Source of the DNA: a virus
Lineage: Duplodnaviria; Caudoviricetes
IMG/VR virus record: IMGVR_UViG_3300020472_000039
Span: 1-51,782 of that record
Length of the DNA: 51,782 nt
Direction: 5' to 3' (one strand)
Shown here piece by piece: positions 1 to 51,294 of this stretch. Below the pieces are notes generated by a model. The model did no database searches. It was given only the letters and a program-made list of their open reading frames with translations, and was not told the origin of the DNA. The first letter of the stretch is position 1; each line of letters starts with the position of its first letter. A program made the translations under genes and the position numbers.

Positions 1-188
1 CAATGAATAGGACTGAGAAAGGTGTTCCATTAGGAGATTTAGAGCAGTTTAAAAGTCCAGAAAGAATTACTTACGAAACAGTAAGTTTAACAATACCAGA
101 TGAAGCTAGAATAAAATGGTATTTAGAGGGGAGTGGTAATACTTACTATGCCCCTAAATTAATAGTGGATAATAATGATTTAAATTAA
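1..188 (+). CDS. 3' end of a gene truncated by the window edge (probably tail/fibre-associated)
   Basis: ORF begins at the window edge with no visible RBS and ends at TAA 186-188; lies in the late arm. Confidence 0.45.
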   Translation, partial: MNRTEKGVPLGDLEQFKSPERITYETVSLTIPDEARIKWYLEGSGNTYYAPKLIVDNNDLN

Positions 189-227
189 TAAATTATATGC
201 ACTTAAAATAGTAAATAAGGAGAAAAA

Positions 228-407
228 ATGGCTAAAGAACAAGATAAAGCAAAAGAAATAGTACAAGAACCTATCAATTTAGAAGAACAATTGAAGGTAA
301 TTGAAGCTCAAATTGCTGAATTGCGTGGAACACACAACTACATAAACAGTCTTTTACAACAAGGCTTTAAAGTTGTGCCTCCAGCTGCGGTACAAGCTGA
401 AAAATAG
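228..407 (+). CDS. small coiled-coil hypothetical protein (59 aa, MAKEQDKAKE...VQAEK), not in the ORF track
   Basis: AAGGAG upstream of ATG 228; hand translation open to TAG 405-407. Confidence 0.75.
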   Translation: MAKEQDKAKEIVQEPINLEEQLKVIEAQIAELRGTHNYINSLLQQGFKVVPPAAVQAEK

Positions 408-413
408 AAATGA

Positions 414-434
414 GGGGGGAGTTAATTCTCCCCT
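414..434 (+). terminator. GC-rich hairpin, probable terminator or processing stem
   Basis: GGGGAG-TTAATT-CTCCCC inverted repeat just after the stop at 407; U-tail is weak. Confidence 0.5.
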
Positions 435-463
435 ACTTTAACACTTTAGATTACGGAGATAAC

Positions 464-751
464 ATGGAAGTAGGAAAAGACACCAAATTCAGTCTTACAT
501 TAGAAACAGCAGTTACCGTACTTGTGACCATAGGAATGGTTATTGGTATGTGGTTTACGCTTAAAGCAGACATTGAAGAAGCAAAAGAGTTACCAGAACC
601 ACCAATAGGTAGAACAGAATATGACCTAAAGGACCAAATGATTAGAAATACAATTATTGAAACTGAAAAAGATGTACAAGAGATTAAAGAAGAACAAAAA
701 GAAATGCGTACAGATGTTAAAAACATTGAGCGTATGTTGATGCAAAAGTGA
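464..751 (+). CDS. single-TM membrane protein with C-terminal coiled coil
   Basis: GGAG RBS favours ATG 464 over 410; hydrophobic AVTVLVTIGMVIGMWF followed by a charged heptad tail. Confidence 0.7.
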   Translation: MEVGKDTKFSLTLETAVTVLVTIGMVIGMWFTLKADIEEAKELPEPPIGRTEYDLKDQMIRNTIIETEKDVQEIKEEQKEMRTDVKNIERMLMQK

Positions 752-760
752 GGTATAGAG

Positions 761-1162
761 ATGAATTATTTATATGGTATTGCATACTTAGTTGGTATAT
801 GTTTATCGTTGTCGCCTTTATATGCTCAAAGTAGTTTAAAAGATTTACAGCAAGTTCAGTTATTAAGTCAAAATGAATGTATAGTAGTCCAGGTAAATGC
901 AGATTGGAACTTTAAAGCATCGTTAGATTTAGGTAAACTAAAGAATTGTACGTGGTTTAATGCAAGTATAGATAATAAAGAATATGGTGCTGCAATAGCA
1001 AGTGAATGGAAGATAGCATCAGTTCCAACAATTATTATGTTTGAGTATGGTAAAGAGATTAAAAGATTTGAAGCGGGTTTATCGTTTAACCTAAATGAGA
1101 AAGAAATCATTAGAAAAATAAACGAAGAGATAGATGCAATAATGTTAAGGAGATTTCAATGA
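761..1162 (+). CDS. secreted thioredoxin-fold protein lacking CXXC
   Basis: signal peptide; VVQVNADWN where F.A.WC..C normally lies; IASVPTIIMFEYGKEIKRF is the thioredoxin cis-Pro motif. Confidence 0.7.
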   Translation: MNYLYGIAYLVGICLSLSPLYAQSSLKDLQQVQLLSQNECIVVQVNADWNFKASLDLGKLKNCTWFNASIDNKEYGAAIASEWKIASVPTIIMFEYGKEIKRFEAGLSFNLNEKEIIRKINEEIDAIMLRRFQ

Positions 1163-2250
1163 TATATTTAGCAAGATGGTTTAAGAAATTATTTTATGGT
1201 TCATTGTTATTAGGAACTTTAGTAGCACAAGACTTTTTTAAGTTTAGCACTATATATGGAGCTTATAATTTTAGTAGTCCAGTAACAAAGGAATTACAAT
1301 ATCAAGTATCTGGTGGTCAGTTACAGGAGTTACAAGAAGAGCTAGATGACCATACAGTTATGACCTTTGGTATTCGTAAACTAGCCAGGTTCGGATATGA
1401 GAACAAAAGCGAAGTTTGGTATTCGGGAAAAGAGGCTAGCATTAATGAAAGTGCTGCTATTGGTAATGTTCCTCAGGGTTGGGAATATGTAATTGAGTAT
1501 TCAGACCATAAAGAGTTTGAAGAAGAGTTTACAAATAAACAATTTATGCTTAGATATATGGGTAAACACTTTATTGGTAAAGCTAACTACGATTATCGTG
1601 GATTAGAAGATGTAGAGTTCGCAGCTGTAGATATGAGATATAAGAAAGACCTTGGTAATCTTGCATTATCATTAGGAGTTGCAGGTCGTTCACATCCAGC
1701 ATATTTAGATTTCCTACCTATTGATTTATGGTGGGATGAACAAGGAATTGATATTAGTGAATCTACTCCATTCTGGTTATTTGCATATGAATATGGCTAT
1801 AGCGATGAATGGACACAGCAATTTACTCAATATGGATATTCTTATTATGACTGGAAATGGTATGATGCAGAAGGCAATCTAGTAGCAAATACAGATGATA
1901 TGTTCTATAAACAGGTCTATGGAGAGATTGTTAAAGATTATAATGAAGAGTATGCAAAAAACCTTGGTTATCAGAATGAATTAAGTTTATCAGTAGGTGC
2001 TGATTATTATAAATACACACCTAAGAATTGGTTTCACTTTTGGACCACAGCATATCCAGTAACAAAGGGTATGTCTGACTATTCATTTAATTATGAAGTA
2101 GCAGAAAATGGAATGGATTATGACTTGGGACTAGTTTACGGATGGAAAATAAGTAACAAGTTTGGAATATTTTTAGAAGGTCGTTATTTTAACATGTACG
2201 ATGTTCAAAGTTATGAGTCCAAGGTTGGATTCAATTGGTTAATATATTAA
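1159..2250 (+). CDS. secreted aromatic-rich protein, probable outer-membrane beta-barrel
   Basis: signal peptide; alternating amphipathic strands (LSLSVGADYY, YDLGLVYGW, FGIFLEGRY); C-terminus ESKVGFNWLIY. Confidence 0.6.
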   Translation: MIYLARWFKKLFYGSLLLGTLVAQDFFKFSTIYGAYNFSSPVTKELQYQVSGGQLQELQEELDDHTVMTFGIRKLARFGYENKSEVWYSGKEASINESAAIGNVPQGWEYVIEYSDHKEFEEEFTNKQFMLRYMGKHFIGKANYDYRGLEDVEFAAVDMRYKKDLGNLALSLGVAGRSHPAYLDFLPIDLWWDEQGIDISESTPFWLFAYEYGYSDEWTQQFTQYGYSYYDWKWYDAEGNLVANTDDMFYKQVYGEIVKDYNEEYAKNLGYQNELSLSVGADYYKYTPKNWFHFWTTAYPVTKGMSDYSFNYEVAENGMDYDLGLVYGWKISNKFGIFLEGRYFNMYDVQSYESKVGFNWLIY

Positions 2251-2264
2251 TAATAGGAGAAAAT

Positions 2265-2411
2265 ATGGTAGGATTTATAGTAGGATTAGCTTTAGGCTTT
2301 GGTCTTCATTATGCACTATGTAAGTATAATGACAAATGTAAATGTTTTGAATTTGCAAAACTTAAAGCAAAAGTTGTAAAAGCGAACAAAAAAAAGAAAG
2401 GTAAAAAATAA
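2265..2411 (+). CDS. 48-aa membrane peptide with basic tail (MVGFIVGLALGFGLHYALC...KKKKGKK), not in the ORF track
   Basis: AGGAG RBS; TAATG overlap with the holin start. Confidence 0.7.
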   Translation: MVGFIVGLALGFGLHYALCKYNDKCKCFEFAKLKAKVVKANKKKKGKK

Positions 2412-2782
2412 TGCCTAAACTAAATGTAGTTGCTGGTATTATTGATAAGGTTGCAGGTCATGTAGACAAGTTTACTTTAGACAAACAGGAGAAAGCTGAA
2501 TTAATTGCAGAAATTAATAAAGCACAAATGGAAGTCAATAAAGTTGAAGCTGGTCATACAAGTATCTTTGTTGCGGGCTGGAGGCCCTTCACGGGCTGGA
2601 TATGTGCTACAGCATTAGGGTATCATTTTTTATTGCAACCTTTACTTACATTTATTATGTATAGTTTTGGAAATGAAATAGTATTACCAACCTTTGATAT
2701 GGGCACTCTTACAACAGTACTTCTTGGAATGCTCGGTCTTGGGGGGATGCGCAGTTTTGAGAAGGTGAAACGTAGTGCCTAA
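2411..2782 (+). CDS. holin (3-TM GTA-type / DUF3154-like)
   Basis: FVAGWRPFTGWICA and LLGMLGLGGMRSFEK motifs typical of this family. Confidence 0.85.
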   Translation: MPKLNVVAGIIDKVAGHVDKFTLDKQEKAELIAEINKAQMEVNKVEAGHTSIFVAGWRPFTGWICATALGYHFLLQPLLTFIMYSFGNEIVLPTFDMGTLTTVLLGMLGLGGMRSFEKVKRSA

Positions 2783-4349
2783 ACAAGAATATGTATTACA
2801 AGGATTTCACGGCGGAATTAACAATAATTCAGACTCTAAAGATATACAAGATATAGAATTTAGAGAAGCTGATGGTGTATCTATTCATGAATTAGGTAGA
2901 TTGACTAGCATTGGAAATTTAAATAGTGCTTTGGCTAACTTATCAGGTGCAGCAGCAGATATAGAGCCAGGTTATGGTTTGCATTATTTTTCAACTGATT
3001 ACGACAATTCAGAAGCAAATAGTTCAGAAGATTGGTTAGCAATTTACAATAAAGGCTCTTCACATAAAGTAAAATTTTATTATAGAGATAAAGACGGCAA
3101 TAGTCCTAATTTTACTAGTTCTGGAAATGAAGTAGTAATGGGTAGTGGAACAAAACCTAATTTTTATTATGCTGATGGATTTTTAAGAATAGGGGATGCT
3201 TCTCACACTAATACAAGTCAATACTTTGGTTATATTGATAGCAACTTATTCTGGACAAGTTCTTCTGGTCAATCGCAAAATTTACATGATATTCATAAAT
3301 GGAAACATGGAATTCAAAAATTAAAAGGGTTTGATAGTATACTTGGCGATACAGATAGAATGGTATTGTTTAATGGAAATACTTCTGCCCCAGAAGATGG
3401 AACAGGAACTTCTAACATACATCAAACTGAAAAGAAATTAATTTTATCGTATTGGACAAATGACGGAGGAGATTGGAACGGAATATATGAATTTGCTGCT
3501 ACTCCTGTTTATCTTGGAAACCAAGAAGGCGAATTGAGTATATTTAAATCAGGTTTAAACAATATTAGTACAGCTCATTTTTATAATCAAGAAGTTATAT
3601 TTCAAGTATTTATACCTACTGGAGAAGATAGTAATAGTGGCATTACAGCAGATGCTGACCATAGATTAGGAGATGATAGAATTATAGGTGTCAATTTTTA
3701 TTTTAGAAAACAAGGAGAAGAAGATTGGACTTTTTTAATGGATACTGATTTAATTGAAGGTGGTAAACATTATTGGAAATTATATAATTCAGATACAGAA
3801 ACTAATTACGGATATTGGACTGGAGCTGAAGTTACTCCATCAGCTGGAGGTTCTACTCAAACAGTATTTGAAGGTATAGATATTTTAGAGGATAGTACTA
3901 CTAATGCTACTCACATCGCTTTTTTCGATGCTGTAAATGGAAGTGGGAATAATTGGGAAGGAACTGGAAGCGCCGCTTCTCAAAAAGGTAAATCATATTT
4001 TAATGTACACTTGAGAGTAAAATTAAGCAATACTAATGTTAATGGATTTACTAATAGATATGGATTTTTAAGAATATGGGGTGGAGCAAATTCTCCTTTA
4101 TATGTAGGTACTGTAAGTAATGCTCAAATTCCTTTTTTAACAGGACAAGCTGGAACTCCAGGTACAGATTATGATACATACTATATACCAATAGCTTTAC
4201 CAGGATTAGGAACCGCTAGAGAGTTTAGAGTAGAATTGTTAGATGAAAATTTTACAGTTATAGCTGATAGTGGAATTAAAACTATGGATATTGAAGATAG
4301 TGGAAAAGCTGCACCAGAAGATTTTGAACAAACTGTGGAGATAGGATAA
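2775..4349 (+). CDS. virion tail stabilisation/nozzle-like protein, N-terminal part
   Basis: N-terminal FHGGIN...D..DI pattern; beta-rich; located before the ejection operon. Confidence 0.5.
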   Translation: MPKQEYVLQGFHGGINNNSDSKDIQDIEFREADGVSIHELGRLTSIGNLNSALANLSGAAADIEPGYGLHYFSTDYDNSEANSSEDWLAIYNKGSSHKVKFYYRDKDGNSPNFTSSGNEVVMGSGTKPNFYYADGFLRIGDASHTNTSQYFGYIDSNLFWTSSSGQSQNLHDIHKWKHGIQKLKGFDSILGDTDRMVLFNGNTSAPEDGTGTSNIHQTEKKLILSYWTNDGGDWNGIYEFAATPVYLGNQEGELSIFKSGLNNISTAHFYNQEVIFQVFIPTGEDSNSGITADADHRLGDDRIIGVNFYFRKQGEEDWTFLMDTDLIEGGKHYWKLYNSDTETNYGYWTGAEVTPSAGGSTQTVFEGIDILEDSTTNATHIAFFDAVNGSGNNWEGTGSAASQKGKSYFNVHLRVKLSNTNVNGFTNRYGFLRIWGGANSPLYVGTVSNAQIPFLTGQAGTPGTDYDTYYIPIALPGLGTAREFRVELLDENFTVIADSGIKTMDIEDSGKAAPEDFEQTVEIG

Positions 4350-5527
4350 TGGCTAAATACGCAGTAATGAATCCAGGTAAATATCATTTAGGAAAACCTT
4401 TTAATTTTCCTCCTATACAAAATAGAACATACGATGAAGATAATATGATTTTTGATATAAAGTGGAAAACTTCCGCATACATTAATAGAAGAGTGTATTT
4501 AGGGAATGTAAAAATAACATACAAAGACGGAAAAACAAAATTGTTAACCGATAGTATATTTAAATCTAAAGCTAGTAAGTTTGATAGTTTTACATTGGAT
4601 GGTCGTATAGATGTTGCTATAGGAGATGGAGAAGATATAATTAGACTAGCTGGATATGCAGATAGATTGTTACAATTTAAACAAAACACTTTACATATTA
4701 TTAATGTAAATAAAGGTCAAGAATTTTTAGAAGCAACACATAAGTTTAAAGGAATTTCTCATCACAACGCAGTTTGCGAGTTTGATTATGGGGTTGCTTT
4801 TTGTAATGCTCATGGAATTTATTTGTATGATGGTCAACAAATTAGTGAATTATTTGTGAAACAAGGAATTAGATTAATATCTGAAGCTGATTGGACATCT
4901 TTTTATAAAGAAGGCGAAACAATGGTTGGATATATACCTAATAAAAAACAATTGTTGTTTGTAAAAGGAGTTACAGGAAATGATAGTGGAGATATAATGA
5001 TATATGATTTAATCACACAATCTTTTACAAAAGGAACAGGTAGATTAGGAGTTACAGATAAAACAAACTTAATTAATATGTGGGACAATCAATTAATTCA
5101 TGGATATGAAACCACTAGCAACTCAGGAACAATAACTGTGAAACCTTGGAAATCTATAGGTTCAGTAGCGGTTAATAATTTTAAAGTAGAAAGTAAAGAT
5201 TTTAATTTTGGCACAGAATCTAAGAAAAAAGTATCTAAAGTAAGAATTACTTATAAAGGAGCAAATGGTAGCAATTTAAATATTTTACCAAAATATTCTA
5301 TTAATGGTGGAGATTTTACTCATTCATTTAAAGATAGTGCTGGTAGTAATATAACAAACATAGCAGGTAGCTCTAATTGGACTGAAATTGACCTTTATAC
5401 TGATTCTAATGCTAATAATATAAGAAGTTTTGCATTTCAGCTTACAGACGTTTCTGGGCAAGATGTAGCAAGTGATTTTCAAATTAATGATGTAACAATT
5501 ATTTATAGAAGAAAGAGTGTAAAATAA
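4349..5527 (+). CDS. virion tail stabilisation/nozzle-like beta-propeller protein
   Basis: GDGEDII.L...DRLLQFK, GIYLYDG and ESKDFNFG..KK...V.ITYK motifs of P22 gp10-like tail proteins; TAATG coupling. Confidence 0.6.
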   Translation: MAKYAVMNPGKYHLGKPFNFPPIQNRTYDEDNMIFDIKWKTSAYINRRVYLGNVKITYKDGKTKLLTDSIFKSKASKFDSFTLDGRIDVAIGDGEDIIRLAGYADRLLQFKQNTLHIINVNKGQEFLEATHKFKGISHHNAVCEFDYGVAFCNAHGIYLYDGQQISELFVKQGIRLISEADWTSFYKEGETMVGYIPNKKQLLFVKGVTGNDSGDIMIYDLITQSFTKGTGRLGVTDKTNLINMWDNQLIHGYETTSNSGTITVKPWKSIGSVAVNNFKVESKDFNFGTESKKKVSKVRITYKGANGSNLNILPKYSINGGDFTHSFKDSAGSNITNIAGSSNWTEIDLYTDSNANNIRSFAFQLTDVSGQDVASDFQINDVTIIYRRKSVK

Positions 5528-5838
5528 TGGCAGAACAAGCAGAGAAAAAGTTTCAAGTTAGACAGACTGGAGTAGGCGGAGGAAGTAGAAGCGGAAATCA
5601 AGTTCTTAGAAGAAAAGTACGTCAAGAATTTCTTGGCGAAAAAGAACAATTTATAAATGAACTTCCTTCAAATACCGATGGTAAAGATGGAGACTTAGTA
5701 TTATATGAAAATAAAAAGAATTTTAATGTTATAGAGCAATTATTGAAAATAAGAGGTCAATGGATAAACCTTACTACTGGTAGACCATTAAAGGATTCTG
5801 CTAAAGTAAGAAAATGGATACAGGGGAAAACAGGGTAA
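5527..5838 (+). CDS. hypothetical virion-associated protein
   Basis: translationally coupled ORF; PSNTDGKDGD motif. Confidence 0.6.
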   Translation: MAEQAEKKFQVRQTGVGGGSRSGNQVLRRKVRQEFLGEKEQFINELPSNTDGKDGDLVLYENKKNFNVIEQLLKIRGQWINLTTGRPLKDSAKVRKWIQGKTG

Positions 5839-5850
5839 TAAATAAAACTG

Positions 5851-5879
5851 TTGATATTAATGAATAAAATAAATAAATT
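5851..5879 (+). promoter_or_regulatory. sigma70-type promoter for the ejection/cargo operon
   Basis: TTGATA-17 bp-TAAATT in the intergenic gap; same pattern at 44623. Confidence 0.65.
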
Positions 5880-5908
5880 ATACGGAAAATCTATGAGGGA
5901 AAATTATT

Positions 5909-7249
5909 ATGCCTAAAAAACGTATTAGTCCAATCGGTTCATCAAGACAAAGAGCTAGTTCTATTTTGTCATCAATTAAAGGTTTGCAATATCAGAGGAC
6001 TGCTGACTTAGAAAATGTTCAATATGAAGTAGAAGGTTTAAAATTAGACAATTTAGCAAATCAAGGTTTAATAGAAATAGGTTTACAAACTATACAATAT
6101 GGAAAAAATAAAGCAGAATTAAACGAATTAAAAAACAAAGCTGAAAGAGGCGTTAATGCTTATAGGAAAATGACTGGTAGCCAAGTAACAGAACATAAAG
6201 TTATTAAAATGAAAGATGTTAAAGAAAGAGAGGATTTATCTATTTGGGATATAGGTAAAGAAGAATGGTTTTTTGATGATGGAAAAAGCTTTTCACTTTC
6301 ACAGGTAATGGTTTTTGATGATTATTACCATAAGAATAATTTTGAAAATATTTTTGACTCAGAAGCTACTCAACAATTAATGAGTGGAGAAGGTGAGAGA
6401 GGTTATATTGATTGGAGCTATGAAAATTCTAATGTTTCTACTGTTCCTTTAGAAGGTAGCAAAGAAGACGCTCTTAACGTAGCAATGTTAAAAAATGTTG
6501 ATATTCAAAAAAGAGTTGGTGAGTTTTTATGGAAAACAAGAGGACAAGGGGAAGGTTGGGCTAAAAAAACAGAAGATGGTTTTTTAAGGATGTATAATGA
6601 CCATAATACTGGTACTGAAGGATTTATTAATGCTAAAACTATTCAAGAATTAGGGAAAAGATTTATGGTAGACGGAGAAACTAGTATAATGGGTAAAGAC
6701 TCAGTAGGGCATACTGCTTTTGATTATTTAGCATATCTTGAATCTGGTTATGACCCAGAAGGTCTATTTGGACCTGCAACTGACGAATTTACATTTATTC
6801 ATCCATTAAACGAAGATGGAAGTAGAGATTATGGTGTATTGGGGATTAATGATAGACATGTAAGAGAAATAGATTGGAAAAATTTACATAAAGGCTCAAA
6901 AAGTTTTGGACAAGATGTAGTAACATATCAAAAATCTGCTGTTGATGGAAAACCAGATACTACAAGTAGAGCAATAGGAAATTATTTAGATTCATTTTTA
7001 CCTACACAAACTGAAGAAAAATATGGATTATTTGGAAGAAAAACTCGAATGGTTCAAGGAGAAAATGAATGGGAAGACGAATTAGCAGAATTAGCGGCTT
7101 ATGTTCCAGATAAGAAAAAAAATCCTTATGATATGCCAGTGTTAAACGAAGATTTTGAATTTACTACAACAATAGGTCAACCAATAATAGATGAAGACGA
7201 ACAATATAGTTTTTTAAATGACGATGAAGACGGAGTGTATATAAAATGA
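5909..7249 (+). CDS. internal virion protein with lysozyme/lytic-transglycosylase-like motifs
   Basis: LAYLESGYDP (catalytic Glu-Ser) and NEDGSRDYGVLGIND. Confidence 0.55.
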   Translation: MPKKRISPIGSSRQRASSILSSIKGLQYQRTADLENVQYEVEGLKLDNLANQGLIEIGLQTIQYGKNKAELNELKNKAERGVNAYRKMTGSQVTEHKVIKMKDVKEREDLSIWDIGKEEWFFDDGKSFSLSQVMVFDDYYHKNNFENIFDSEATQQLMSGEGERGYIDWSYENSNVSTVPLEGSKEDALNVAMLKNVDIQKRVGEFLWKTRGQGEGWAKKTEDGFLRMYNDHNTGTEGFINAKTIQELGKRFMVDGETSIMGKDSVGHTAFDYLAYLESGYDPEGLFGPATDEFTFIHPLNEDGSRDYGVLGINDRHVREIDWKNLHKGSKSFGQDVVTYQKSAVDGKPDTTSRAIGNYLDSFLPTQTEEKYGLFGRKTRMVQGENEWEDELAELAAYVPDKKKNPYDMPVLNEDFEFTTTIGQPIIDEDEQYSFLNDDEDGVYIK

Positions 7250-7836
7250 GTAGCTACGGTGGTGGAATAGGTAGTACCGCAGCTACAACTGTAGCTGGAG
7301 GAACTGGAGCAGCAACAGCAGCATCTTGGGTAAATCCAGCAATGTTTGGATTGCAAGCTTTGGCTATGGTAGGTTCAGCAAGAAATCAGGCAAAGCAATC
7401 AAGTGCTCAAATAAGAGCAAATAATACTGCAATAAAAGATATAACTGCTCAAATAGGCATGACAGATGAAGCAGCAGTAGCTCAAGGTGAAGTAGCTCAA
7501 GGTGATTATTATAGAGGCTGGAATCAATCAGGACAAAAATATTCTAATATGTTTGATGATTTATTTCAAAAACATGAAACTAATTTAGGTATTCAAGGTT
7601 TTGCTCATAGTGGTGGTTTAGAAAGAAGCACAGAATTGATGGGCGAAAGAATGAATCAAGAATTTGAAACTGGTAGAGAAAATCTATTAGATAGTTTAGA
7701 CAAAAGTCTAGCAAATATAAGTGAATGGCAACAATCTGAAAAATTTAGATTAGAAGCTGATAAAACAAAATTAAAAGCACAAAATAGAGTTCTAAGAAAA
7801 AGCAATACAACTTGGAAAGCATTAGGATTCGGTTAG
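7246..7836 (+). CDS. small DNA-ejection (pilot-type) protein
   Basis: Gly/Ala-rich hydrophobic N-terminus followed by Gln/Ala helical region, like T7 gp14 or P22 gp7 class. Confidence 0.55.
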   Translation: MSSYGGGIGSTAATTVAGGTGAATAASWVNPAMFGLQALAMVGSARNQAKQSSAQIRANNTAIKDITAQIGMTDEAAVAQGEVAQGDYYRGWNQSGQKYSNMFDDLFQKHETNLGIQGFAHSGGLERSTELMGERMNQEFETGRENLLDSLDKSLANISEWQQSEKFRLEADKTKLKAQNRVLRKSNTTWKALGFG

Positions 7837-7845
7837 GAAACAATT

Positions 7846-9768
7846 ATGCCAAATAAAGTAGCAGATGTAATGGGAACTCTCAATAAAATGATTGAGGGAG
7901 ATATAGCAAAAATTCGTGCTGAGCAACAAGGTGCTTATAGAGGATTAGAGTTATCTTTAAGAGAAAGAGAAGGAGATAGAGCTCATGAATTAGCTTTAAA
8001 AGAATTAGAAGAAAAAGAAAGAGCAAGATTTAAACAGGAAACAGCAGAACTTAATGGTATGGTTACAGCTGCTGAAATTAAACATTCTAATTCTATATAT
8101 GCTCAATTAGAAGGTAGTATAATGGATGGTATTTTTTTAACAAAAGATGGCACAAAATATGATTATACTAAAAAGAATAAAAAGAAATTAGTAGATAAAT
8201 TTAGAGCAGCTGGTTTTCAAGACGCAGAAAGTATGGCAAGATTGTTTATTATGCAATCTCAAGGAACTACTGACGCAAATGGAAATAAAGTAGAAAGCGC
8301 TAACAATGAAAATATAATACAAATTGCTCAAACCTTTGCAACTACATTAGCTGCTGACCCTACTAAAATTAATAGTTTTATTGATGCTGGTATTTTTCCA
8401 GAAAATGAAGCACAATGGTCTTCGCTAACTCAAAACCTAAATCAAATACTTACTTTAAGAGATACTGGACTTCAATTACAAGAAGAATTAATGGGATTAA
8501 CTCGAGGAGATTTAGAATACGATAGAGATTATCATGGTATATTTTGGGATATGGGAATGGGTCAAGCGCCTCCTGGATACGAAAAAGGAAGTGCAAGTGA
8601 AGGTATGGCTGGAACTGAAACTGGAGATAGAGTTGATATTAGAGACCCAGATAAACCGCCTTCATCATTATTTGCAGAGTATAACCAAAATCACGGTGAT
8701 TATACATTGAATAATATGAAATATTTGCTTACTCAAGAAGTAGGCAATAATCCTTCACATAGAAAGAATTTAATGAAACTTGTAACTGAAAATAGTCAAT
8801 ATTTAGAAGACGATTACATATTTATGCCTATAAGCTTTGGAATGGATGATATGGGAGACGATAGAAGAGCTATTGCCAATCAAACTAAGGAAAATGTAGA
8901 TACTTTATCAGACCGAATGAAAACTGAAATAGAAATAATATCGAGGTTAGAAAGTAAATTATCTAGCGGTAGAGGAAGTGGTGATGGAGTTGTAGGACAA
9001 CTTAAAGGAACAACTGATACAGAGAAAATGAATATTCATAGGCAAATAGCTGCACATACTGGAAAACTAGCATTATTACAACAAGATTATAAAACACACC
9101 AAGAATTTTCTAATAGGGCTGTACAAGAATCTTATGGATATACTGACGAACAAGGAAGATATTTTCCTGGAGGAGATAAAACTTTAGGAGATTTTATGAA
9201 AGGTGATTACGCTTTTAATTTCTTAGGTATTAACGATGCTATAGAAGCAGCTAAAAAATTTCAGCAAAGTCCTATGGCAGAAGCTTTAGATGCTTACCAA
9301 CCACTTGGAGTTGGGATTAAAGATGTGCCAATTGGTAATCCATTACAAAATGTGCTTTACGGGATGTCACATATATGGAGTGGAGATAGATGGAAAACAA
9401 AAAATATACCAGCTATTAAATCTGGATTAAGATATTTAGATACAGATAGAGATAAAACATTTACCGCTGATTTAAGTGATGTTCCAGGTTCTTTATTTGA
9501 AATAGATTTAAGAACAGCTAACGAAAAAGACGTATATATGGATAAATATTTAGAAAGAGCATATACATCGCAAAGAGAATCAGTTCCTTCTGAATGGTTT
9601 GAAACGAGAGATGAAAATAGAATAGCTGCTAAAAATTGGTATAATCAAAAAGAAGCCACAGATAATAGTGCAATGGAGAGCTTAGAATATATACAAGGTT
9701 TACCATTTAGAGGAACTTCTATTTTAGAGATGTCAGACGTGTTAATGCCTGAAAACACTAATAAATAA
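7846..9768 (+). CDS. internal virion/cargo protein
   Basis: 640-aa helical ORF between the pilot-like gene and the giant RNAP gene. Confidence 0.5.
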   Translation: MPNKVADVMGTLNKMIEGDIAKIRAEQQGAYRGLELSLREREGDRAHELALKELEEKERARFKQETAELNGMVTAAEIKHSNSIYAQLEGSIMDGIFLTKDGTKYDYTKKNKKKLVDKFRAAGFQDAESMARLFIMQSQGTTDANGNKVESANNENIIQIAQTFATTLAADPTKINSFIDAGIFPENEAQWSSLTQNLNQILTLRDTGLQLQEELMGLTRGDLEYDRDYHGIFWDMGMGQAPPGYEKGSASEGMAGTETGDRVDIRDPDKPPSSLFAEYNQNHGDYTLNNMKYLLTQEVGNNPSHRKNLMKLVTENSQYLEDDYIFMPISFGMDDMGDDRRAIANQTKENVDTLSDRMKTEIEIISRLESKLSSGRGSGDGVVGQLKGTTDTEKMNIHRQIAAHTGKLALLQQDYKTHQEFSNRAVQESYGYTDEQGRYFPGGDKTLGDFMKGDYAFNFLGINDAIEAAKKFQQSPMAEALDAYQPLGVGIKDVPIGNPLQNVLYGMSHIWSGDRWKTKNIPAIKSGLRYLDTDRDKTFTADLSDVPGSLFEIDLRTANEKDVYMDKYLERAYTSQRESVPSEWFETRDENRIAAKNWYNQKEATDNSAMESLEYIQGLPFRGTSILEMSDVLMPENTNK

Positions 9769-9773
9769 AATAT

Positions 9774-12700
9774 ATGTCAGATACAATTACAGATAAATTA
9801 GCTAAAAGTTTAGCAGATAATGTTTTTGATACTAACCAACAAACTAATGTTGGAAATAGAATACCAAGTATAGATGTATTAAGACAAATGGCATCTACTC
9901 CTTTAGAACCTCAAAATACTATAGAAAAAAGTATGCATCAAGGTTTAGGAAGGTCTATGATGAGAAATACTGGAGACTTTTTAAGAGAAGGTGCTGAAGC
10001 ATTTATAGACACAGCATTATTTAGTGCTCCTAGTGCATTTACAGATTGGGACCCATCAGAAGGCGCAGATACTAGTGCTGGAAAATGGGGTGCTGGTATT
10101 GGTGGTACTGCTGGATTTATTAATCCATGGAAAGCGACAGCAAAAGGACTTGGTTGGGCTACAAGAAAAGGTGCTTCTGCTTTTGGAAAAACTACAACAG
10201 ACGACTTAGTTAAACAATTAGACAAAGTTGTTAAGACATCAACTGCAACAGATAAGCTTGGCAAAACAGTAAAAACAAGCGATGATGGAGTTGAAGCTCT
10301 TAGATGGATGGCTGGAGCTAAAGAAAGCGACAATATTATTTCTACATTCGGCAAGATGGTATCTCACCAATTTAAAGAAAAAATTAAACATTGGAGTCAT
10401 TTAGGCGTAAAACAAAAAGACGATTTTACAAAAATGATTAATGAGGGCTTTGGCGATAGTATTAAAAGAATGGCAAACGCTCAAGGAATGGAAGTTTCAG
10501 AAGAAGCTGTAGAACAAATTAGTCGTAGAATGATGAAAGCTTGGGATAAAGCTGGACAAAATCCTATTGATAACATACAATCTTTAATTGCGGGAGCATT
10601 TCCAACAAGTAAATTAGCTAGTTTTTATGGGCATTTATTTGAAGAAGCTGTAACATTCGCAACAGTAGATAGTATTATGCATGGACTGCAAGTTGCTGGT
10701 GGAAAACAAGACGCAGATTTTGGAGCAGTTGCTAAACACGGATTTATGTTAGGACATGCATTGGGTGTTGTAAGATTTGTTCCAAATATGGGTACTGGAG
10801 AAGCTGGTGTAAGAGGAGGATTTGGTGGTTTATTTAACAGAGATGGTAGAGCAAATTGGGTTCGTTTACTTGCTAATAGTAGAAATTATGCTAGAAAGTT
10901 AGACCCTTCAAAAGAAAGCCATAGAGGTTCTATAGGTATTTTATATAAAACATTTGATGATTTAGGTCGTATACCAAAAGAAGGTGGAGAACATGGTGCT
11001 GCTTCAATTTGGAGACAAGTCAAAACACATATGAATGAATGGTATGCTAAATCAGGAAATAAACAATATGACCCAGGAGCATATACTTATGACCATTTAG
11101 CACATTTAATGAAAACAGGTAGCCCAGAACAGGCTAAAAATATAGCACAAGCTATGCAATTTGTTTTAGGACAAGTAAGCAGTCAAGCAAGAAAAAAATG
11201 GAAACCACAATTCTTAAAAGAATGGGCTAAAGATTTTGCTACTGCTACTCCTCGTATGGGGCTTGGTGGTTTAGTTATGGGGAATGAAGTTATATTTGAT
11301 GAAAATGTTCCATTAGAAGATAAAATTATGACAGTAGGTATTGGTGCATTTTTAATGAGAAGTGGTAAAGAATTACAATATAGAGGAGCAGATGGTAGTC
11401 ATAAAGTAATAGGGAGTTTAAGAGATTTTCCTAGAAAACTTAGAGATTTAAAAGAAACTGCTGATGTAGTAGGGCATAAATTTATGAAAGGGTATCATGA
11501 TGCAAGTGGCGAGGTAGTATATGATATAGACCCACAATGGCGAAAATACATGGAAATGGCTGACAAGACTGTAGAAAAATTTAATGAATTTGAAAATACA
11601 GGGTTTTCTAATGTTGACGAAGCAACTAAGATTGTAAATTTATTAAACACTAGTGCAAAATCAGGAAGAGATAATTCAATTAATAAAGAATTAGAATCAA
11701 ACAGTTCTAGAATTAAAGCGTTAGATAGTCGTTTAGTAGAAATGGAAAAAGAACTTCCAAAAATTACTGTTGGAGATAAAGATTACAATGGTAAAAATCA
11801 AGGAGAGGTAAGACCTGAAGATTTAGCAAAACTATCTGAATCAAAAGAAGCTAAAGAGCGACAAGAACTTTTAGAACAAAATGAAATATTAAAAAGTGAA
11901 AAAGAAACTACTATAGATTTAGGTGATTATAAAATATTTGTTACTAATGATAGTCGTATAAGAAAAGGTGCTAATCAAGGAGCAAAATATCAAAAAAATG
12001 TAGATAAGGTTGTAGAAACTATTTACAATCTTATTAAAGAAAGATTTAGCAAAGCAGATGTAATTGGAAAAGGAAAAAGATTAAAAGAAATTGATGAAAT
12101 GACTACAAAAGAATATGAAATGCTAGAACAAGCATTGAAAGATAATAAGTTAGAAACTACTCGTGATGTACAAGAAATTTTTAGAAAAGCTAATAGAGAT
12201 AATATACAAAATACTTCACGTGATAGAGTTAAAACAGCATTAGATATAATAGATTCTCTTAGAGATGGAAACGGAGATAAGCTTTTTGATGTAGAAGTAA
12301 AACAATTAGACAACGGAAAAAACCAATATACTTTTAGAACAATAAATTATGGAGCGCTTGGTAGAAAATTAACCGATAAAACTAAAGAAGCTCTTGATGA
12401 ATATAATTCATTGCTTCAGATAATAAAAGGTGAAGGTGAGCATATAATTTTAGATGGTAATAAAAGAATAGATTTAGATTCTAAGCATGAAAATGCTAAT
12501 TGGGAAGCAGTTGAAATTGTTATGGAAAATTCTTTACTTGCAATGCAAAAAAATTATGGAATTGATGGTCTACCTAAAACATTAACATATCAAGACGGGT
12601 GGTTGAGAGCGGCTATTGAATCTACAATTATAGATACTCAAATTCATCATAGTGTAAAAACTTTTAGTCGTCATTGGGAAGAGGGCACACAACTTGGGCA

Positions 12701-40636: not shown

Positions 40637-40851
40637 TGTTTGATTTATTTAAGGATGAAAATGAATATAACGAAAAGAATATCATTGGATTTCTTTCATT
40701 CGCACTTATGTGTGTATTTGGAATTGTAGATTTAGCAATGGGAATTATAGGTATTGAACTTATGGTTAATGACTATATTTACAATTCATTTGTTTGGATT
40801 ACACTTGGTTCGTTTGGAATTTCAGGAGCAGAAAAAGTTTATAAAAAATAG
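40636..40851 (+). CDS. small two-TM membrane protein (holin-like)
   Basis: TAATG coupling gives ATG 40636; two hydrophobic segments; close to the endolysin. Confidence 0.6.
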   Translation: MFDLFKDENEYNEKNIIGFLSFALMCVFGIVDLAMGIIGIELMVNDYIYNSFVWITLGSFGISGAEKVYKK

Positions 40852-40859
40852 GAACAATT

Positions 40860-41996
40860 ATGCAACAAGATAAAAAAAAGTGGATAGATAGGCAATGGCA
40901 TACTGATTATGGCTCAGAATATGAAGAAAGTTTTGAAGAAAGAAAGATTCGAGAAAATAGAAAAAGCAAATTATTTAGTGGATGGAAAGAAAAAAGAGCG
41001 GAAAAATTAAGAAATAAAGCAGATAAACTAGACCCTCCAAAACCAGAACCAACAATGGGAAAAGGGGTTGTAGAATCTTTAGTAATGGATAATTTTGTAA
41101 AAGGAGAAGATAAAAGTAGTCTATACAATTATTCTTTGGAAGACGAAAAAAAACAAGTAAAATTAGCAGATTTAGGATTTATGACTCACGATGAAGTAGA
41201 TGGGAAATGGGGACCTCAATCTGTTCAAATGGATTCCTTGTATGTAATATTAAAAGGAAAAGGTTTTGATGACAAAACTATTACCGCTAGAAATTATGCA
41301 GAACGTGAAGGATATAGTGAAAAAGTTTTAAATTTATTAGACCCAGTTAATGGAGAAGCTGGAAAAGAATTATTTATGTATGCAACAACTCCTAATTTAC
41401 AACAATTTTTAACAAAAGAAGAAAAACAAGTATTATTCAAAGATTCTTTACCAAAACAAATACCAAGCGGTAGAGGGGATAGAATGGTTGACGCAGAATA
41501 TAGCGATGCAAGTGTTGAAGATATTGTTATGGGTAAAATGGAAAGTATGGATAAAAATAAATTAGATGAAGATAAAATAAAACATCTTTATGGAAAAGTG
41601 GGATTAGCAGCTTTAGATGTAGGAAGATATACTGCTGGTAAGCTTGGTACTATAGGAGAAAAATTTGAAAAAATAAGAAATAATCCTGAAACTCTTGCAA
41701 GATTTCTAGGACTTTCTAATCCGCTATTAGTTGAAGAAATGGTACAAGCTAGTAAATTTGTTGTGAAAAAAGGCAGTGAAAAAATTAAAGATATGAAAAA
41801 TAAAAATAAAGAACAAGTTGTTCCTTGGATTGAAAATCAAGAACGTCTTAATGAATCTAAATATGGTAGAAAAGATATTAGACAAGCTACTAATCAAGAA
41901 ATAGTAAATCCTCGTATGCCTGGAGAATTAAGAAGAGAAGCAGAAGAAGCTGGTTTAGAAGATAAAAGTCCTTATGTAGGGAAAAGGAATTATTAA
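40860..41996 (+). CDS. hypothetical protein with a peptidoglycan-binding-like motif
   Basis: KQVKLADLGF...VDGKWGPQS resembles the PG_binding_1 DG.xG..T motif. Confidence 0.5.
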   Translation: MQQDKKKWIDRQWHTDYGSEYEESFEERKIRENRKSKLFSGWKEKRAEKLRNKADKLDPPKPEPTMGKGVVESLVMDNFVKGEDKSSLYNYSLEDEKKQVKLADLGFMTHDEVDGKWGPQSVQMDSLYVILKGKGFDDKTITARNYAEREGYSEKVLNLLDPVNGEAGKELFMYATTPNLQQFLTKEEKQVLFKDSLPKQIPSGRGDRMVDAEYSDASVEDIVMGKMESMDKNKLDEDKIKHLYGKVGLAALDVGRYTAGKLGTIGEKFEKIRNNPETLARFLGLSNPLLVEEMVQASKFVVKKGSEKIKDMKNKNKEQVVPWIENQERLNESKYGRKDIRQATNQEIVNPRMPGELRREAEEAGLEDKSPYVGKRNY

Positions 41997-42388
41997 TGCC
42001 AAGTTTTGGAAAAAAATCACAAGAAAAATTAAATACATGCGACCCTAGATTAGTAGAACTATTTGAAATAGTAGTAGAAGATTTTGATTGTACTGTTTTG
42101 CAAGGACATCGTGGAGAAGAAGAACAGAACAAGCTATTTGAAGAAGGATTTAGTAAATTAAAATATCCAAAAGGAAATCATAACAAATATCCTTCATTGG
42201 CTGTAGACGTTGCTCCTTATCCAGTAGACTGGGAAGATAGAGAACGATTTACGTATTTTGCTGGATTTGTTATGGGGATTGCTGCTTCAATGGGACTTAC
42301 TATTCGTTGGGGTGGAGATTGGGACAGAGATACAAATTTAAAAAATAATAATTTTGATGATTTACCACATTTTGAAATAAGGGACTAA
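41996..42388 (+). CDS. endolysin, M15-family L-Ala-D-Glu peptidase (T5-like)
   Basis: GHRGEEEQ, H...PSLAVD, RWGGDW and DLPHFE motifs. Confidence 0.9.
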   Translation: MPSFGKKSQEKLNTCDPRLVELFEIVVEDFDCTVLQGHRGEEEQNKLFEEGFSKLKYPKGNHNKYPSLAVDVAPYPVDWEDRERFTYFAGFVMGIAASMGLTIRWGGDWDRDTNLKNNNFDDLPHFEIRD

Positions 42389-47230: not shown

Positions 47231-47242
47231 ATGGAGATATAT

Positions 47243-48100: not shown

Positions 48101-48378
48101 TGAAAGTTTTAGAAATAATGGAAAGAGTTAATTCTCGTGATACAAGTTTAGTAATTGCTTATATAAAAGATGCTATAAATTTATTAAATTCTCAAAATGA
48201 AATATTTACAAAAACTAAAAAAATTAATATTACTAAAAATACAAGAGATTATGATTTACCAGGTGATTTAGTTTCTATTAAAAGTGTAAGCGTATTAGAT
48301 ACTGAAGATGATAATAAATATAAAAAAATTAGAAGATTGGGAAGTGACCCAGTTGTTAGTGAGGACACAAATCCATGA
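48100..48378 (+). CDS. structural protein (adaptor-like N-terminal domain)
   Basis: YIKDA and YDLPGD motifs. Confidence 0.55.
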   Translation: MKVLEIMERVNSRDTSLVIAYIKDAINLLNSQNEIFTKTKKINITKNTRDYDLPGDLVSIKSVSVLDTEDDNKYKKIRRLGSDPVVSEDTNP

Positions 48379-51286: not shown

Positions 51287-51294
51287 GGAGTTAA

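What the first reader, a model, noticed from the sequence alone, without database searches (positions are those of the whole stretch)
464..2782. Envelope cassette next to the holin: TM coiled-coil, redox-dead thioredoxin, beta-barrel and basic membrane peptide
Seen: four coupled genes for exported or membrane proteins immediately before a holin. The thioredoxin has NADWN in place of WCxxC, and the 363-aa protein has porin-like strands, a very acidic Trp/Tyr-rich insert and an aromatic C-terminus. No lipobox-type o-spanin is evident. Inference: an uncharacterised trans-envelope system, such as non-canonical outer-membrane disruption, superinfection exclusion or a receptor decoy, possibly with its own periplasmic chaperone.
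Basis: partly seen in the sequence, partly recalled or inferred. Interest (0 to 1): 0.72.

Follow-up and report, generated by a model that had tools for sequence, protein, structure and literature searches.

The report
Phage lysis-linked envelope module with barrel
An uncultured marine phage, probably of Bacteroidota, carries next to its holin a conserved set of genes for an inner-membrane coiled-coil protein, a cysteine-less periplasmic thioredoxin-fold protein and an outer-membrane barrel, which may be a new way for phages to break the outer membrane at lysis.

Summary
Window 464-2782 encodes a 95-aa one-TM coiled-coil protein (TMcc), a signal-peptide thioredoxin-fold protein without CxxC (Trx), a signal-peptide 12-stranded outer-membrane barrel (OMP), a small TM/cationic peptide and a PF11351 holin. 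No credible lipoprotein gene exists in the 97%-complete genome.

The barrel fold is supported (Z 13.4 to Tsx). TMcc, Trx and OMP lie in order in 37 of 37 evaluable close loci. In 71 of 84 loci whose OMP is only about 30% identical to the window's, all three genes are present, in two gene orders.

Context points to lysis. An endolysin lies within three genes in 67 of those 84 loci. A window-type holin follows the OMP in 39 of 52 close loci. In two complete relatives without the module, the same slot holds a lipoprotein plus TM coiled-coil genes.

Two corrections. The obligate unit is TMcc-Trx (44 of 44), with the OMP in only 10 of 44 TMcc-selected loci. The small peptide is variable (20 of 52).

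Best reading (0.4): a spanin-like outer-membrane disruption module with a barrel as outer-membrane subunit. Function is inferred, not shown.

The parts
464..751 (+). TMcc: a 95-aa protein with a short N-terminus, one transmembrane segment (residues 15-33), a conserved juxtamembrane motif (FTLQxDIxEAKxLPxPxVxRTEYxxKDxxxR) and a C-terminal amphipathic or coiled-coil helix. Predicted topology is N-in, C-out (type II).
   Evidence: start at 464. (alignment A3: 14 invariant columns, 35-41% identity to distant members). (TM segment, charge flanks, heptads); no Pfam, PHROG, PADLOC or NCBIfam family; at least 7998 protein clusters match the profile (cap reached).
761..1162 (+). Trx: a 133-aa secreted thioredoxin-fold protein. 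The signal peptide is probably cleaved at LYA|Q. WNFKA replaces WCGPC and the cis-Pro is retained.
   Evidence: A2; profile against PDB, 211 sequences at E<=1, best 1.1e-8, all 60 listed are thioredoxins or Trx-fold proteins. PF00085 in 14 of 14 members, best 8.3e-7. AF2 pLDDT 76.5; Foldseek TM about 0.72, rmsd 2.4 A to thioredoxins; 436 homologues.
1159..2250 (+). OMP: a 363-aa protein with a signal peptide (cleavage LVA|Q) and a predicted 12-stranded outer-membrane beta-barrel. It has a long, conserved first periplasmic turn (RKLARFGYE, residues 73-81) and a 90-residue acidic, aromatic loop (181-270). The family is unannotated.
   Evidence: VIA Z 13.4 Tsx, 12.6 EstA barrel, 12.4 OpcA, 12.0 KdgM and NanC. 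Foldseek top hits NanC, FapF, OmpG; no family and no sequence match to PDB; 461 representative clusters; at least 497 viral contigs.
2265..2411 (+). Small membrane peptide of 48 aa from ATG 2265 (58 aa from TTG 2235). It has one TM segment, a Cys-rich stretch and a C-terminal tail with net charge +11. It is translationally coupled to the holin and varies among relatives.
   Evidence: detected in 20 of 52 close loci; phrog_20082 'membrane protein', E 0.0026, weak.
2411..2782 (+). Holin of the GTA_holin_3TM family.
   Evidence: PF11351, E 9e-13, above the cut-off; phrog_3427 holin, E 5.8e-27; a homologue within 1.2 kb downstream of the OMP in 39 of 52 close loci.
41996..42388 (+). Endolysin (M15-type peptidase), encoded apart from the cassette, between the terminase and portal genes.
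   Evidence: phrog_465 endolysin, E 7.4e-36. PF13539 Peptidase_M15_4, E 8.7e-4, below the cut-off.

Best explanation
The three genes TMcc, Trx and OMP form an exported envelope module of the phage's lysis cassette, and it acts at the last step of lysis, disruption of the outer membrane.

Proposed mechanism (inferred, not shown):
- TMcc is anchored in the inner membrane with its coiled-coil in the periplasm, as an i-spanin is.
- The barrel is inserted in the outer membrane and takes the place of the lipoprotein o-spanin.
- The redox-dead thioredoxin-fold protein is the periplasmic adaptor that links the two. It may dock on the conserved juxtamembrane motif of TMcc and on the conserved long periplasmic turn of the barrel.
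- Once the holin and endolysin have removed the peptidoglycan, the complex destabilises or fuses the membranes.

What is shown: the predicted location and fold of each part, their co-conservation, and their genomic association with holins and endolysins.

What is inferred: that they bind one another, and that they disrupt the outer membrane.

The host is probably a marine member of Bacteroidota.
For: 1. Parts in both membranes and the periplasm.
- A type-II-like TM coiled-coil protein.
- Sec-type signal peptides on Trx and OMP, with Gln at +1. This position is invariant Q23 in 14 of 14 A2 rows and Q19 in 13 of 13 A4 rows, and is Q24 in at least 90% of the 20 A1 rows.
- A 12-stranded outer-membrane barrel fold.

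2. Co-conservation.
- The order TMcc-Trx-OMP holds in 37 of 37 close loci with enough upstream sequence.
- In 84 loci whose OMP is about 30% identical to the window's, all three genes were found in 71. Several of the 13 misses are cut by contig ends or lost to ORF-calling conflicts.
- Two gene orders occur (TMcc-Trx-OMP and OMP-TMcc-Trx), plus duplications.

3. Lysis context.
- An endolysin lies within three genes in 67 of 84 distant loci. It is Peptidase_M15_3 in 59, directly downstream in 28. It is Amidase_2 in 8, always directly downstream.
- A PF11351-like holin occurs in 18 of the 84.
- The window-type holin lies within 1.2 kb downstream of the OMP in 39 of 52 close loci.
- Cassettes such as 'TMcc Trx OMP amidase holin' leave the three genes in the position where spanin genes normally sit.

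4. Complementary distribution among five syntenic genomes.
- The window and G003 carry the triad, and G006 carries TMcc-Trx only. None of the three has a credible lipoprotein gene.
- G008 and G011 lack Trx and OMP. Each has exactly one lipoprotein gene, in the same slot, beside TM coiled-coil genes.

5. No known module fills this role in the window. No lipoprotein was found, and the spanin review explicitly leaves open that 'an OMP could act as an o-spanin' (PMC6139136, section 15 read in full).

6. The most conserved motif of the barrel (R73 K74 A76 R77 F78 Y80 E81) lies at the predicted long first periplasmic turn. This is a plausible docking site (the topology is my reading of the strand order).
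Against: 1. The OMP is not obligatory. Among 44 loci fetched by TMcc with enough flank, Trx follows TMcc in 44, but an OMP is present in only 10. The 99%-complete genome G006 has TMcc and Trx, no OMP, and no credible lipoprotein. An inner-membrane subunit without an outer-membrane partner does not fit a spanin.

2. In 15 of 84 distant loci a lipoprotein gene sits in the same cassette as the triad. The two are therefore not strictly exclusive.

3. The periplasmic part of TMcc is only about 60 residues, shorter than in known i-spanins. For comparison, the T4 i-spanin is 117 aa in total, as quoted in PMC6139136.

4. In OMP-less loci a recognisable lysis gene was found nearby in only 9 of 34, using a small query set.

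5. The module is accessory within the terminase-defined lineage. The OMP is in 3 of 11 long records, and in 1 of 5 records that are at least 90% complete.

6. A cationic TM peptide next to the holin could be an alternative outer-membrane disruptor in this phage (compare the abstract of 10.1101/515445).

7. There is no experimental evidence, and no sequence relationship to any known spanin.
Confidence: 0.4

Rival explanations
1. Lysis-timing pair. TMcc is a single-TM holin, or a holin partner, with a periplasmic domain. Trx is a secreted periplasmic regulator that binds it, as T4 holin T binds antiholin RI. The barrel, where present, is an accessory sensor or anchor.
For: TMcc-Trx is the obligate unit: 44 of 44, always in that order, and duplicated as a pair. 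It occurs without any OMP in 34 of 44 loci. In G006 my hydropathy scan found no other credible small membrane protein on the coding strands, and no window-type holin. Many distant cassettes have an endolysin without a signal peptide but no recognised holin; a holin-like gene was seen in only 18 of 84.
Against: The window, G003 and 18 distant loci carry a PF11351-type holin as well as TMcc. My hydropathy scan also missed the bona fide holin of the window, so 'no other holin' in G006 is weak. This reading does not explain why an outer-membrane barrel is linked to the pair across deep divergence. The T4 comparison is recalled, and no similarity to T or RI was tested.
Confidence: 0.2
2. Superinfection exclusion or receptor masking. 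The exported proteins remodel the envelope of the infected cell so that further phages cannot adsorb or inject, or so that progeny are not lost on cell debris. The acidic, aromatic surface loop of the barrel would act as a decoy or blocker.
For: In the window the module follows the tail-fibre genes across the window ends: 49991-51780, then 3-407, then the module. The module is accessory among close relatives. The large predicted surface loop is the least barrel-like part. Phage-encoded outer-membrane barrels exist among uncultured phages in BFVD.
Against: The association with endolysins and holins persists across very divergent phages (67 of 84), which is not typical of exclusion genes; that typicality is from general knowledge. 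There is no match to any PADLOC defence model. The linkage with an inner-membrane coiled-coil protein is not explained.
Confidence: 0.15
3. The barrel acts by itself, either as a channel or as an outer-membrane lipid-degrading enzyme. As a channel it would be Tsx-, KdgM- or NanC-like, taking up nucleosides or sugars. As an enzyme it would be OMPLA-, LpxR- or PagL-like. TMcc-Trx would be an unrelated neighbour.
For: The best structural matches are small specific channels (Tsx Z 13.4, KdgM and NanC Z 12.0). Outer-membrane enzymes also match (OmpT 11.4, LpxR 9.8, OMPLA 9.5, PagL 9.3). The family has many invariant charged residues and one invariant His, H293.
Against: These Z-scores reflect the common barrel fold, and sequence identity is 4-10%. 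There is no H-x-S motif around the invariant His; this is my reading, and the motif itself is recalled. The barrel was always found next to TMcc-Trx. It has no homologues in cellular genomes apart from 5 phage-like loci found in the genome-contig scan; the tool description puts that collection at 185,579 species genomes.
Confidence: 0.1

Closest known systems
Two-component spanins (lambda Rz/Rz1, T4 PseT.3/PseT.2)
   Same: An inner-membrane protein with a periplasmic coiled-coil is paired with a protein of the outer membrane. The genes are clustered with holin and endolysin genes. In relatives the module is positionally interchangeable with a lipoprotein plus TM coiled-coil gene set.
   Different: The outer-membrane part is an integral 12-stranded barrel, not a lipoprotein. 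A third, periplasmic thioredoxin-fold subunit is obligatory. The gene pair is neither embedded nor overlapped. The periplasmic arm is short. There is no sequence similarity to any PHROG or Pfam spanin family. The barrel is absent from many relatives.
T4 holin T with periplasmic antiholin RI (recalled, not tested here)
   Same: A single-TM membrane protein with a periplasmic domain is encoded with a secreted periplasmic partner, in a lysis context.
   Different: Sizes and folds differ: TMcc is 95 aa and the partner has a thioredoxin fold. A separate 3-TM-family holin is present in the window. No homology was tested.
phiKT gp28 'disruptin' (abstract of 10.1101/515445 read)
   Same: It is a spanin-independent route to outer-membrane disruption by a small cationic peptide of 56 aa. 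The window's 48-aa peptide has a +11 tail and sits against the holin.
   Different: The window peptide has a clear TM segment and a Cys-rich stretch. It is variable among relatives (20 of 52). No sequence comparison with gp28 was made.
Phage-encoded outer-membrane proteins (lambda Lom, recalled; Pfam PF24653 Phage_OMP; barrels of uncultured phages in BFVD)
   Same: It is a phage gene for a Sec-exported outer-membrane beta-barrel.
   Different: There is no match to PF24653 or to any Pfam OMP family. The barrel has 12 strands and a 90-residue acidic loop. It is always linked to TMcc-Trx and usually to lysis genes, rather than being a lone accessory gene.
Redox-inactive thioredoxin-fold proteins (E. 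coli YbbN/CnoX appears among the Foldseek hits, 3qou)
   Same: It has a thioredoxin fold without a working CxxC, and the cis-Pro loop is kept. This suggests binding rather than redox chemistry.
   Different: It is a stand-alone 110-residue periplasmic domain with a signal peptide, encoded by a phage, with no TPR domain. The link to chaperone function is inference only.

Membership tests
Two-component spanin | i-spanin: a type II inner-membrane protein (N-in, C-out) with a periplasmic coiled-coil domain | tested here: inconclusive
   There is one TM segment at residues 15-33. The flank after it is acidic and the N-flank is neutral to basic (+4 in L016). Hydrophobic residues fill 8 of 14 a/d heptad positions. 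Orientation is predicted only, and the periplasmic part is about 60 aa.
Two-component spanin | o-spanin: an outer-membrane lipoprotein with a lipobox signal | tested here: not met
   The relaxed lipobox scan of all frames found no credible lipoprotein ORF in the window. The outer-membrane candidate is a barrel with a signal peptidase I-type signal.
Two-component spanin | Genes clustered with holin and endolysin genes | tested here: met
   A holin lies 161 nt downstream of the OMP in the window. A holin follows in 39 of 52 close loci. An endolysin lies within 3 genes in 67 of 84 distant loci.
Two-component spanin | The subunits bind each other across the periplasm | not testable with these tools
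   No tool available here measures binding. It needs pull-down or cross-linking of the three proteins.
Two-component spanin | Required for outer-membrane disruption (spherical-cell arrest when absent) | not testable with these tools
   This needs genetics in a host-phage pair.
Thioredoxin (PF00085) | Thioredoxin fold | tested here: met
   Profile against PDB: best E 1.1e-8, hits are thioredoxins. PF00085 in 14 of 14 members, although the window protein itself is below the cut-off at 17.7 bits against 23.5. Foldseek TM about 0.72, rmsd 2.4 A.
Thioredoxin (PF00085) | Catalytic CxxC (WCGPC) motif | tested here: not met
   WNFKA aligns to WCGPC. No CxxC occurs in any of the 14 aligned members.
Thioredoxin (PF00085) | Conserved cis-proline loop | tested here: met
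   P89 is invariant in A2 and aligns with the cis-Pro of thioredoxins.
Outer-membrane beta-barrel protein | N-terminal Sec signal peptide | tested here: met
   There is a hydrophobic N-terminus ending in A|Q in all aligned members. No dedicated signal-peptide predictor was available.
Outer-membrane beta-barrel protein | Closed antiparallel barrel with an even number of strands, resembling solved OMPs | tested here: met
   I read 12 long strands in the AF2 model. VIA Z 13.4 to 12.0 to Tsx, EstA, OpcA, KdgM and NanC, with 155-190 residues aligned at rmsd 3.8-4.6. Model confidence is moderate (pLDDT 73).
Outer-membrane beta-barrel protein | C-terminal aromatic beta-signal | tested here: inconclusive
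   The window and all nine close relatives aligned in A1 end in ...LIY. The ten distant members end in K, R or L.
Pfam PF24653 Phage_OMP | Match to the family model | tested here: not met
   No match in the window at E<=10, and none in the Pfam scan.
Holin, PF11351 GTA_holin_3TM | Match above the gathering score | tested here: met
   49.3 bits against a cut-off of 24.8. phrog_3427 holin, E 5.8e-27. Holin activity itself was not tested.
Known anti-phage defence or exclusion systems (PADLOC) | Match to any model | tested here: not met
   0 families for 8 proteins at E<=0.01.

The most novel reading that the evidence does not exclude
This would be the first example of a spanin-type outer-membrane disruption machine in which the outer-membrane subunit is an integral beta-barrel and a redox-dead thioredoxin-fold protein bridges it to a short inner-membrane coiled-coil protein. 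It would be a three-part, Bacteroidota-adapted solution that is widespread in marine phages. The TMcc-Trx pair would be its ancient core.
Probability: 0.33. Interest if true: 0.85.

Novelty: new variant of a known kind. Interest (0 to 1): 0.72.

Why it matters
About 13% of phages of Gram-negative hosts have no recognisable spanin. How they break the outer membrane is an open question, and the review that says so also notes that an outer-membrane protein might serve as o-spanin (PMC6139136, section 15).

The module found here is abundant. The TMcc profile matches at least 7998 protein clusters. None of its parts is annotated.

If it is a lysis device, three things follow:
- It gives a testable candidate for outer-membrane disruption in phages of marine Bacteroidota.
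- It gives a new use for the thioredoxin fold.
- It provides three marker families for finding lysis cassettes in viromes.

If it is instead a lysis-timing or exclusion system, it is still a large uncharacterised envelope system of ocean phages.

Tried and rejected
- Complex prediction (OMP 25-363, TMcc 33-95, Trx 24-133, with Trx as the scored partner): no answer, score 0.00 against a mark of 0.32, and the controls were not run. This is evidence neither for nor against binding.
- Family searches for TMcc, OMP and the small peptide: nothing usable in Pfam, PHROGs, PADLOC or NCBIfam. TMcc matched only weakly to PHROGs of unknown function (phrog_20984 in 7 of 13 members, best E 1.5e-4).
- OMP profile against PDB sequences: only a chance hit at E 0.74.
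- tblastn of the window OMP and of a distant OMP against 50,697 phage records: no match. The terminase is at most about 24% identical to those of cultured phages.
- Profile comparison of TMcc with the TM coiled-coil proteins of G011 and G008: probabilities 62% and 20%. This is too weak to claim homology.
- Sigma-70 promoter and terminator scan of 1-6000: below the shuffle expectation, with no plus-strand terminator.
- RNA libraries: error-free contigs from metatranscriptome runs of 3 studies cover parts of all five genes. Contigs cannot prove transcription and DNA carry-over is possible. Stretches without cover mean nothing.
- Catalytic motifs in the barrel: I looked by eye for an OMPLA- or PagL-type H-x-S around the invariant His and found none. 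No coordinates were available to map residues.
- GH108-type endolysin hits in the close loci: many are artefacts of an alternative frame over the holin. Only the L030 protein was checked; it matches NMB1012-like solved proteins at E 2.6e-24.
- Literature: three full-text searches found no paper describing a barrel-type o-spanin or a thioredoxin-fold lysis protein. The library lacks most subscription journals, and supplementary files were not seen, including the spanin tables of PMC6139136.
Full report
WHAT THE WINDOW IS

The window is a whole IMG/VR virus record of 51,782 bases, estimated 97% complete, with about 31% G+C. It encodes a terminase, portal, major head protein, tail fibres, a helicase, a methyltransferase and an M15-type endolysin. 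It also encodes a 3113-aa protein with no family match. Its terminase is at most about 24% identical to that of any cultured phage, so this is an uncultured lineage.

The reported region lies in a long co-directional block. It comes after the tail-fibre genes, which run across the window ends, and before further large, presumably structural genes.

THE OBSERVATION

All five ORFs are present as described.

TMcc. Relatives show that it starts at the ATG at 464, giving 95 aa. It has one hydrophobic segment and a conserved juxtamembrane motif. Its acidic C-terminal helix has hydrophobic residues at 8 of 14 a/d positions.

Trx. A profile of 14 family members finds thioredoxins in the PDB at E 1.1e-8. 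PF00085 is hit by 14 of 14 members. The AF2 model superposes on thioredoxins at TM about 0.72. WNFKA lies where WCGPC lies, the cis-Pro is kept, and no member has CxxC.

OMP. It has no family match in Pfam, PHROGs, PADLOC or NCBIfam, and its profile finds nothing in PDB sequences. The AF2 model has pLDDT 73 and pTM 0.63. In a search of 48,161 chains it matches only outer-membrane barrels at the top:

| Solved chain | Z |
|---|---|
| Tsx | 13.4 |
| EstA barrel | 12.6 |
| OpcA | 12.4 |
| KdgM | 12.0 |
| NanC | 12.0 |

Foldseek agrees. I count 12 transmembrane strands. By strand parity the 90-residue acidic, aromatic insert is a surface loop (18 D/E, 4 K/R and 24 aromatics). The family's most conserved motif, RKLARFGYE, falls in an unusually long first periplasmic turn. 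That topological reading is an inference.

Holin. It is a bona fide PF11351 and phrog_3427 member.

Lipoprotein. No credible lipoprotein gene exists anywhere in the window.

HOST

Both secreted proteins have Gln directly after the predicted cleavage site. This Gln is invariant in alignments A2 (14 of 14) and A4 (13 of 13), and present in at least 90% of the 20 rows of A1.

This is the 'Q-rule', described as specific to signal peptidase I substrates of Bacteroidetes (abstracts of PMC5837995 and PMC10653852). It has been noted for phage proteins of Porphyromonas (passages of PMC10367356).

Two of five cellular-bin loci are labelled Flavobacteriaceae and one Bacteroidetes. Binning of phage contigs is unreliable. 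A Bacteroidota host is therefore likely but not shown.

CO-CONSERVATION

Close relatives were fetched by the OMP (57 loci). They keep the order TMcc-Trx-OMP in 37 of the 37 loci that extend far enough upstream.

A second, much larger group has an OMP only about 30% identical to the window's. Of 84 such loci examined (80 viral and 4 from genome bins), 83 had the OMP called and 71 had all three genes. Several of the 13 misses are cut by contig ends or lost to ORF-calling conflicts.

The genes occur in two orders, TMcc-Trx-OMP and OMP-TMcc-Trx, and sometimes with a second TMcc or a second TMcc-Trx pair. Linkage that survives this much divergence and rearrangement indicates a functional unit.

The converse test changes the picture. 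Among 80 loci fetched by TMcc, 44 have enough flank:
- Trx follows TMcc in 44 of 44.
- An OMP is present in only 10 of 44.

The obligate unit is therefore TMcc-Trx, and the barrel is a frequent but optional third member.

The small cationic peptide is not conserved. It is detected in 20 of 52 loci. It lies in a hypervariable slot that elsewhere holds very basic small proteins, one family of which matches DUF5872.

CONTEXT

In the 84 distant loci:
- An endolysin lies within three genes of the module in 67.
- It is Peptidase_M15_3 in 59, directly downstream in 28.
- It is Amidase_2 in 8, always directly downstream.
- A PF11351-like holin occurs in 18.

Typical cassettes read 'TMcc Trx OMP amidase holin' or 'OMP TMcc Trx M15-peptidase'. 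In the close group, a window-type holin follows the OMP within 1.2 kb in 39 of 52 loci. The three genes thus occupy the place in a lysis cassette where spanin genes are normally found.

COMPARISON OF SYNTENIC GENOMES

Among 11 long records with a related terminase (75-99% identity), only 3 have the OMP. None of five OMP-less records has the window-type holin.

I read four of them in full:

| Genome | Completeness | Content of the slot | Lipoprotein gene |
|---|---|---|---|
| G003 | 100% | Syntenic with the window: triad, peptide and holin | None |
| G006 | 99% | TMcc (60% identity) and Trx (49%), no OMP | None credible |
| G008 | 100%, terminal repeats | Lipoprotein (109 aa), two TM coiled-coil proteins (118 and 117 aa), small TM peptides | One, in the slot |
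| G011 | 99% | Lipoprotein (101 aa) and several TM coiled-coil proteins (77-90 aa) | One, in the slot |

G008 and G011 lack Trx and OMP. In each of them the slot lipoprotein is the only lipoprotein gene found in the genome. So in five genomes the Trx-based module and a canonical-looking lipoprotein plus type II protein set replace each other in one slot. The sample is small. Homology between TMcc and the coiled-coil proteins of G011 and G008 is weak (hhalign 62% and 20%).

INTERPRETATION

The best-supported reading is a lysis-cassette envelope module acting at the outer-membrane step. TMcc would be an i-spanin-like inner-membrane arm, the barrel would be the outer-membrane subunit, and the cysteine-less thioredoxin fold would be a periplasmic adaptor. 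The review of spanins states that 13% of phages lack recognisable spanins, and that 'an OMP could act as an o-spanin' (PMC6139136, section 15 read in full). I found no paper describing such a case (searches; limited library).

I put this at 0.4, not higher, for four reasons:
- The barrel is absent from most TMcc-Trx loci and from the complete genome G006.
- A lipoprotein co-occurs with the triad in 15 of 84 loci.
- The periplasmic arm is short.
- Nothing shows binding or function.

RIVALS

- Holin/antiholin-like timing pair (0.2). This fits the obligate pairing and the scarcity of other membrane proteins in G006. My hydropathy scan also missed the true holin of the window, so that argument is weak.
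- Superinfection exclusion or receptor masking (0.15). This fits the position after the tail fibres and the accessory distribution. It fits poorly with the persistent endolysin and holin linkage and with the absence of any PADLOC match.
- The barrel acting alone as a channel or lipid-degrading enzyme (0.1).

MEMBERSHIP

The module is not a member of the two-component spanin family as defined, because the lipoprotein o-spanin criterion was tested and not met. It may nevertheless work like one.

Trx is a member of the thioredoxin fold but not a redox thioredoxin. The OMP is an outer-membrane barrel of a new, unannotated sequence family with 461 representative clusters. BFVD holds one homologue with no name at hand, at 26% identity. 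TMcc belongs to no described family.

EXPRESSION

Contigs from marine metatranscriptome libraries of three studies match parts of all five genes without differences. This shows the sequences occur in RNA libraries, not that they are transcribed.

VERDICT

The finding is real, widespread and uncharacterised. Two corrections apply: the core is the TMcc-Trx pair, and the barrel and the peptide are optional. The function is inferred from anatomy and neighbourhood only.

Noticed in passing
window 2250-2411, and the same slot in L004, L008, L012, L022, L028, L036, L040: The gap between the OMP and the holin is a hypervariable slot of 0.1-1.1 kb. In relatives it holds one to four very basic (K/R-rich) small proteins. 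A member of one such family, taken from a distant locus (L115), matches DUF5872. In some loci the slot instead holds a small TM plus Cys-rich peptide.
   Followed up: partly
window 40636-40851: A small protein of about 71 aa (from the ATG) with one or two hydrophobic segments. Its start overlaps the terminase stop codon and it lies 1.1 kb upstream of the endolysin. It is conserved in G003 but not found in G006. It could be a second holin-like protein.
   Followed up: partly
window 9774-19115 and 19109-21892: Giant ORFs of 3113 aa and 927 aa with no Pfam match; the 927-aa one also has no PHROG match. Similar giant genes of 2100-2330 aa lie directly upstream of the OMP in 39 of the 84 distant loci.
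   Followed up: no
L070, L077, L078, L080, L092, L094, L100-L103, L105, L115, L120, L121, L141: A lipoprotein of about 137 aa with a Tyr/Asn/Pro-rich, low-complexity C-terminal half lies in the same cassette as the triad, usually right after the M15 endolysin. It has no Pfam or NCBIfam match. It could be an o-spanin-like partner of one of the duplicated TMcc copies.
   Followed up: partly
L061 7374-7697, L136 6652-7017 and 8 further loci: A small exported protein with a K-x-x-H-F-A-A-G motif, weakly similar to YfiM family lipoproteins (NF008028, E 4e-9, below the cut-off), recurs beside the module.
   Followed up: partly
G006 (L226-L228), G008 (L229), and L012, L261, L263, L274, L290, L300: A conserved 50-53-aa amphipathic ORF (MNIV.SKLLT...DDEIWAEVKKALK) sits directly upstream of the large structural gene, exactly where the PF11351 holin sits in the window. 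In the loci I looked at, the two seem to replace each other.
   Followed up: no
L063 (genome bin labelled Flavobacteriaceae), 14-1411 and 5980-7874: OMP-TMcc-Trx lies at the end of a 27.8-kb contig whose upstream ORF looks like an Hsp90/HtpG fragment by eye. This may be a prophage junction in a Flavobacteriaceae chromosome. It was not tested.
   Followed up: no
P0138 (167 aa) and P0099 (604 aa): One Trx homologue carries an internal duplication of about 34 residues. One OMP-related protein is fused or mis-assembled with polysaccharide-export domains (PF10531, PF02563, PF22461) on a 3.1-kb contig.
   Followed up: no
G006 contig ends (171-1315 and 51703-52856): The same genes, homologues of window 47231-48378, appear at both ends of this 'linear' record. 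It is therefore probably a circularly permuted complete genome with an assembly overlap.
   Followed up: no
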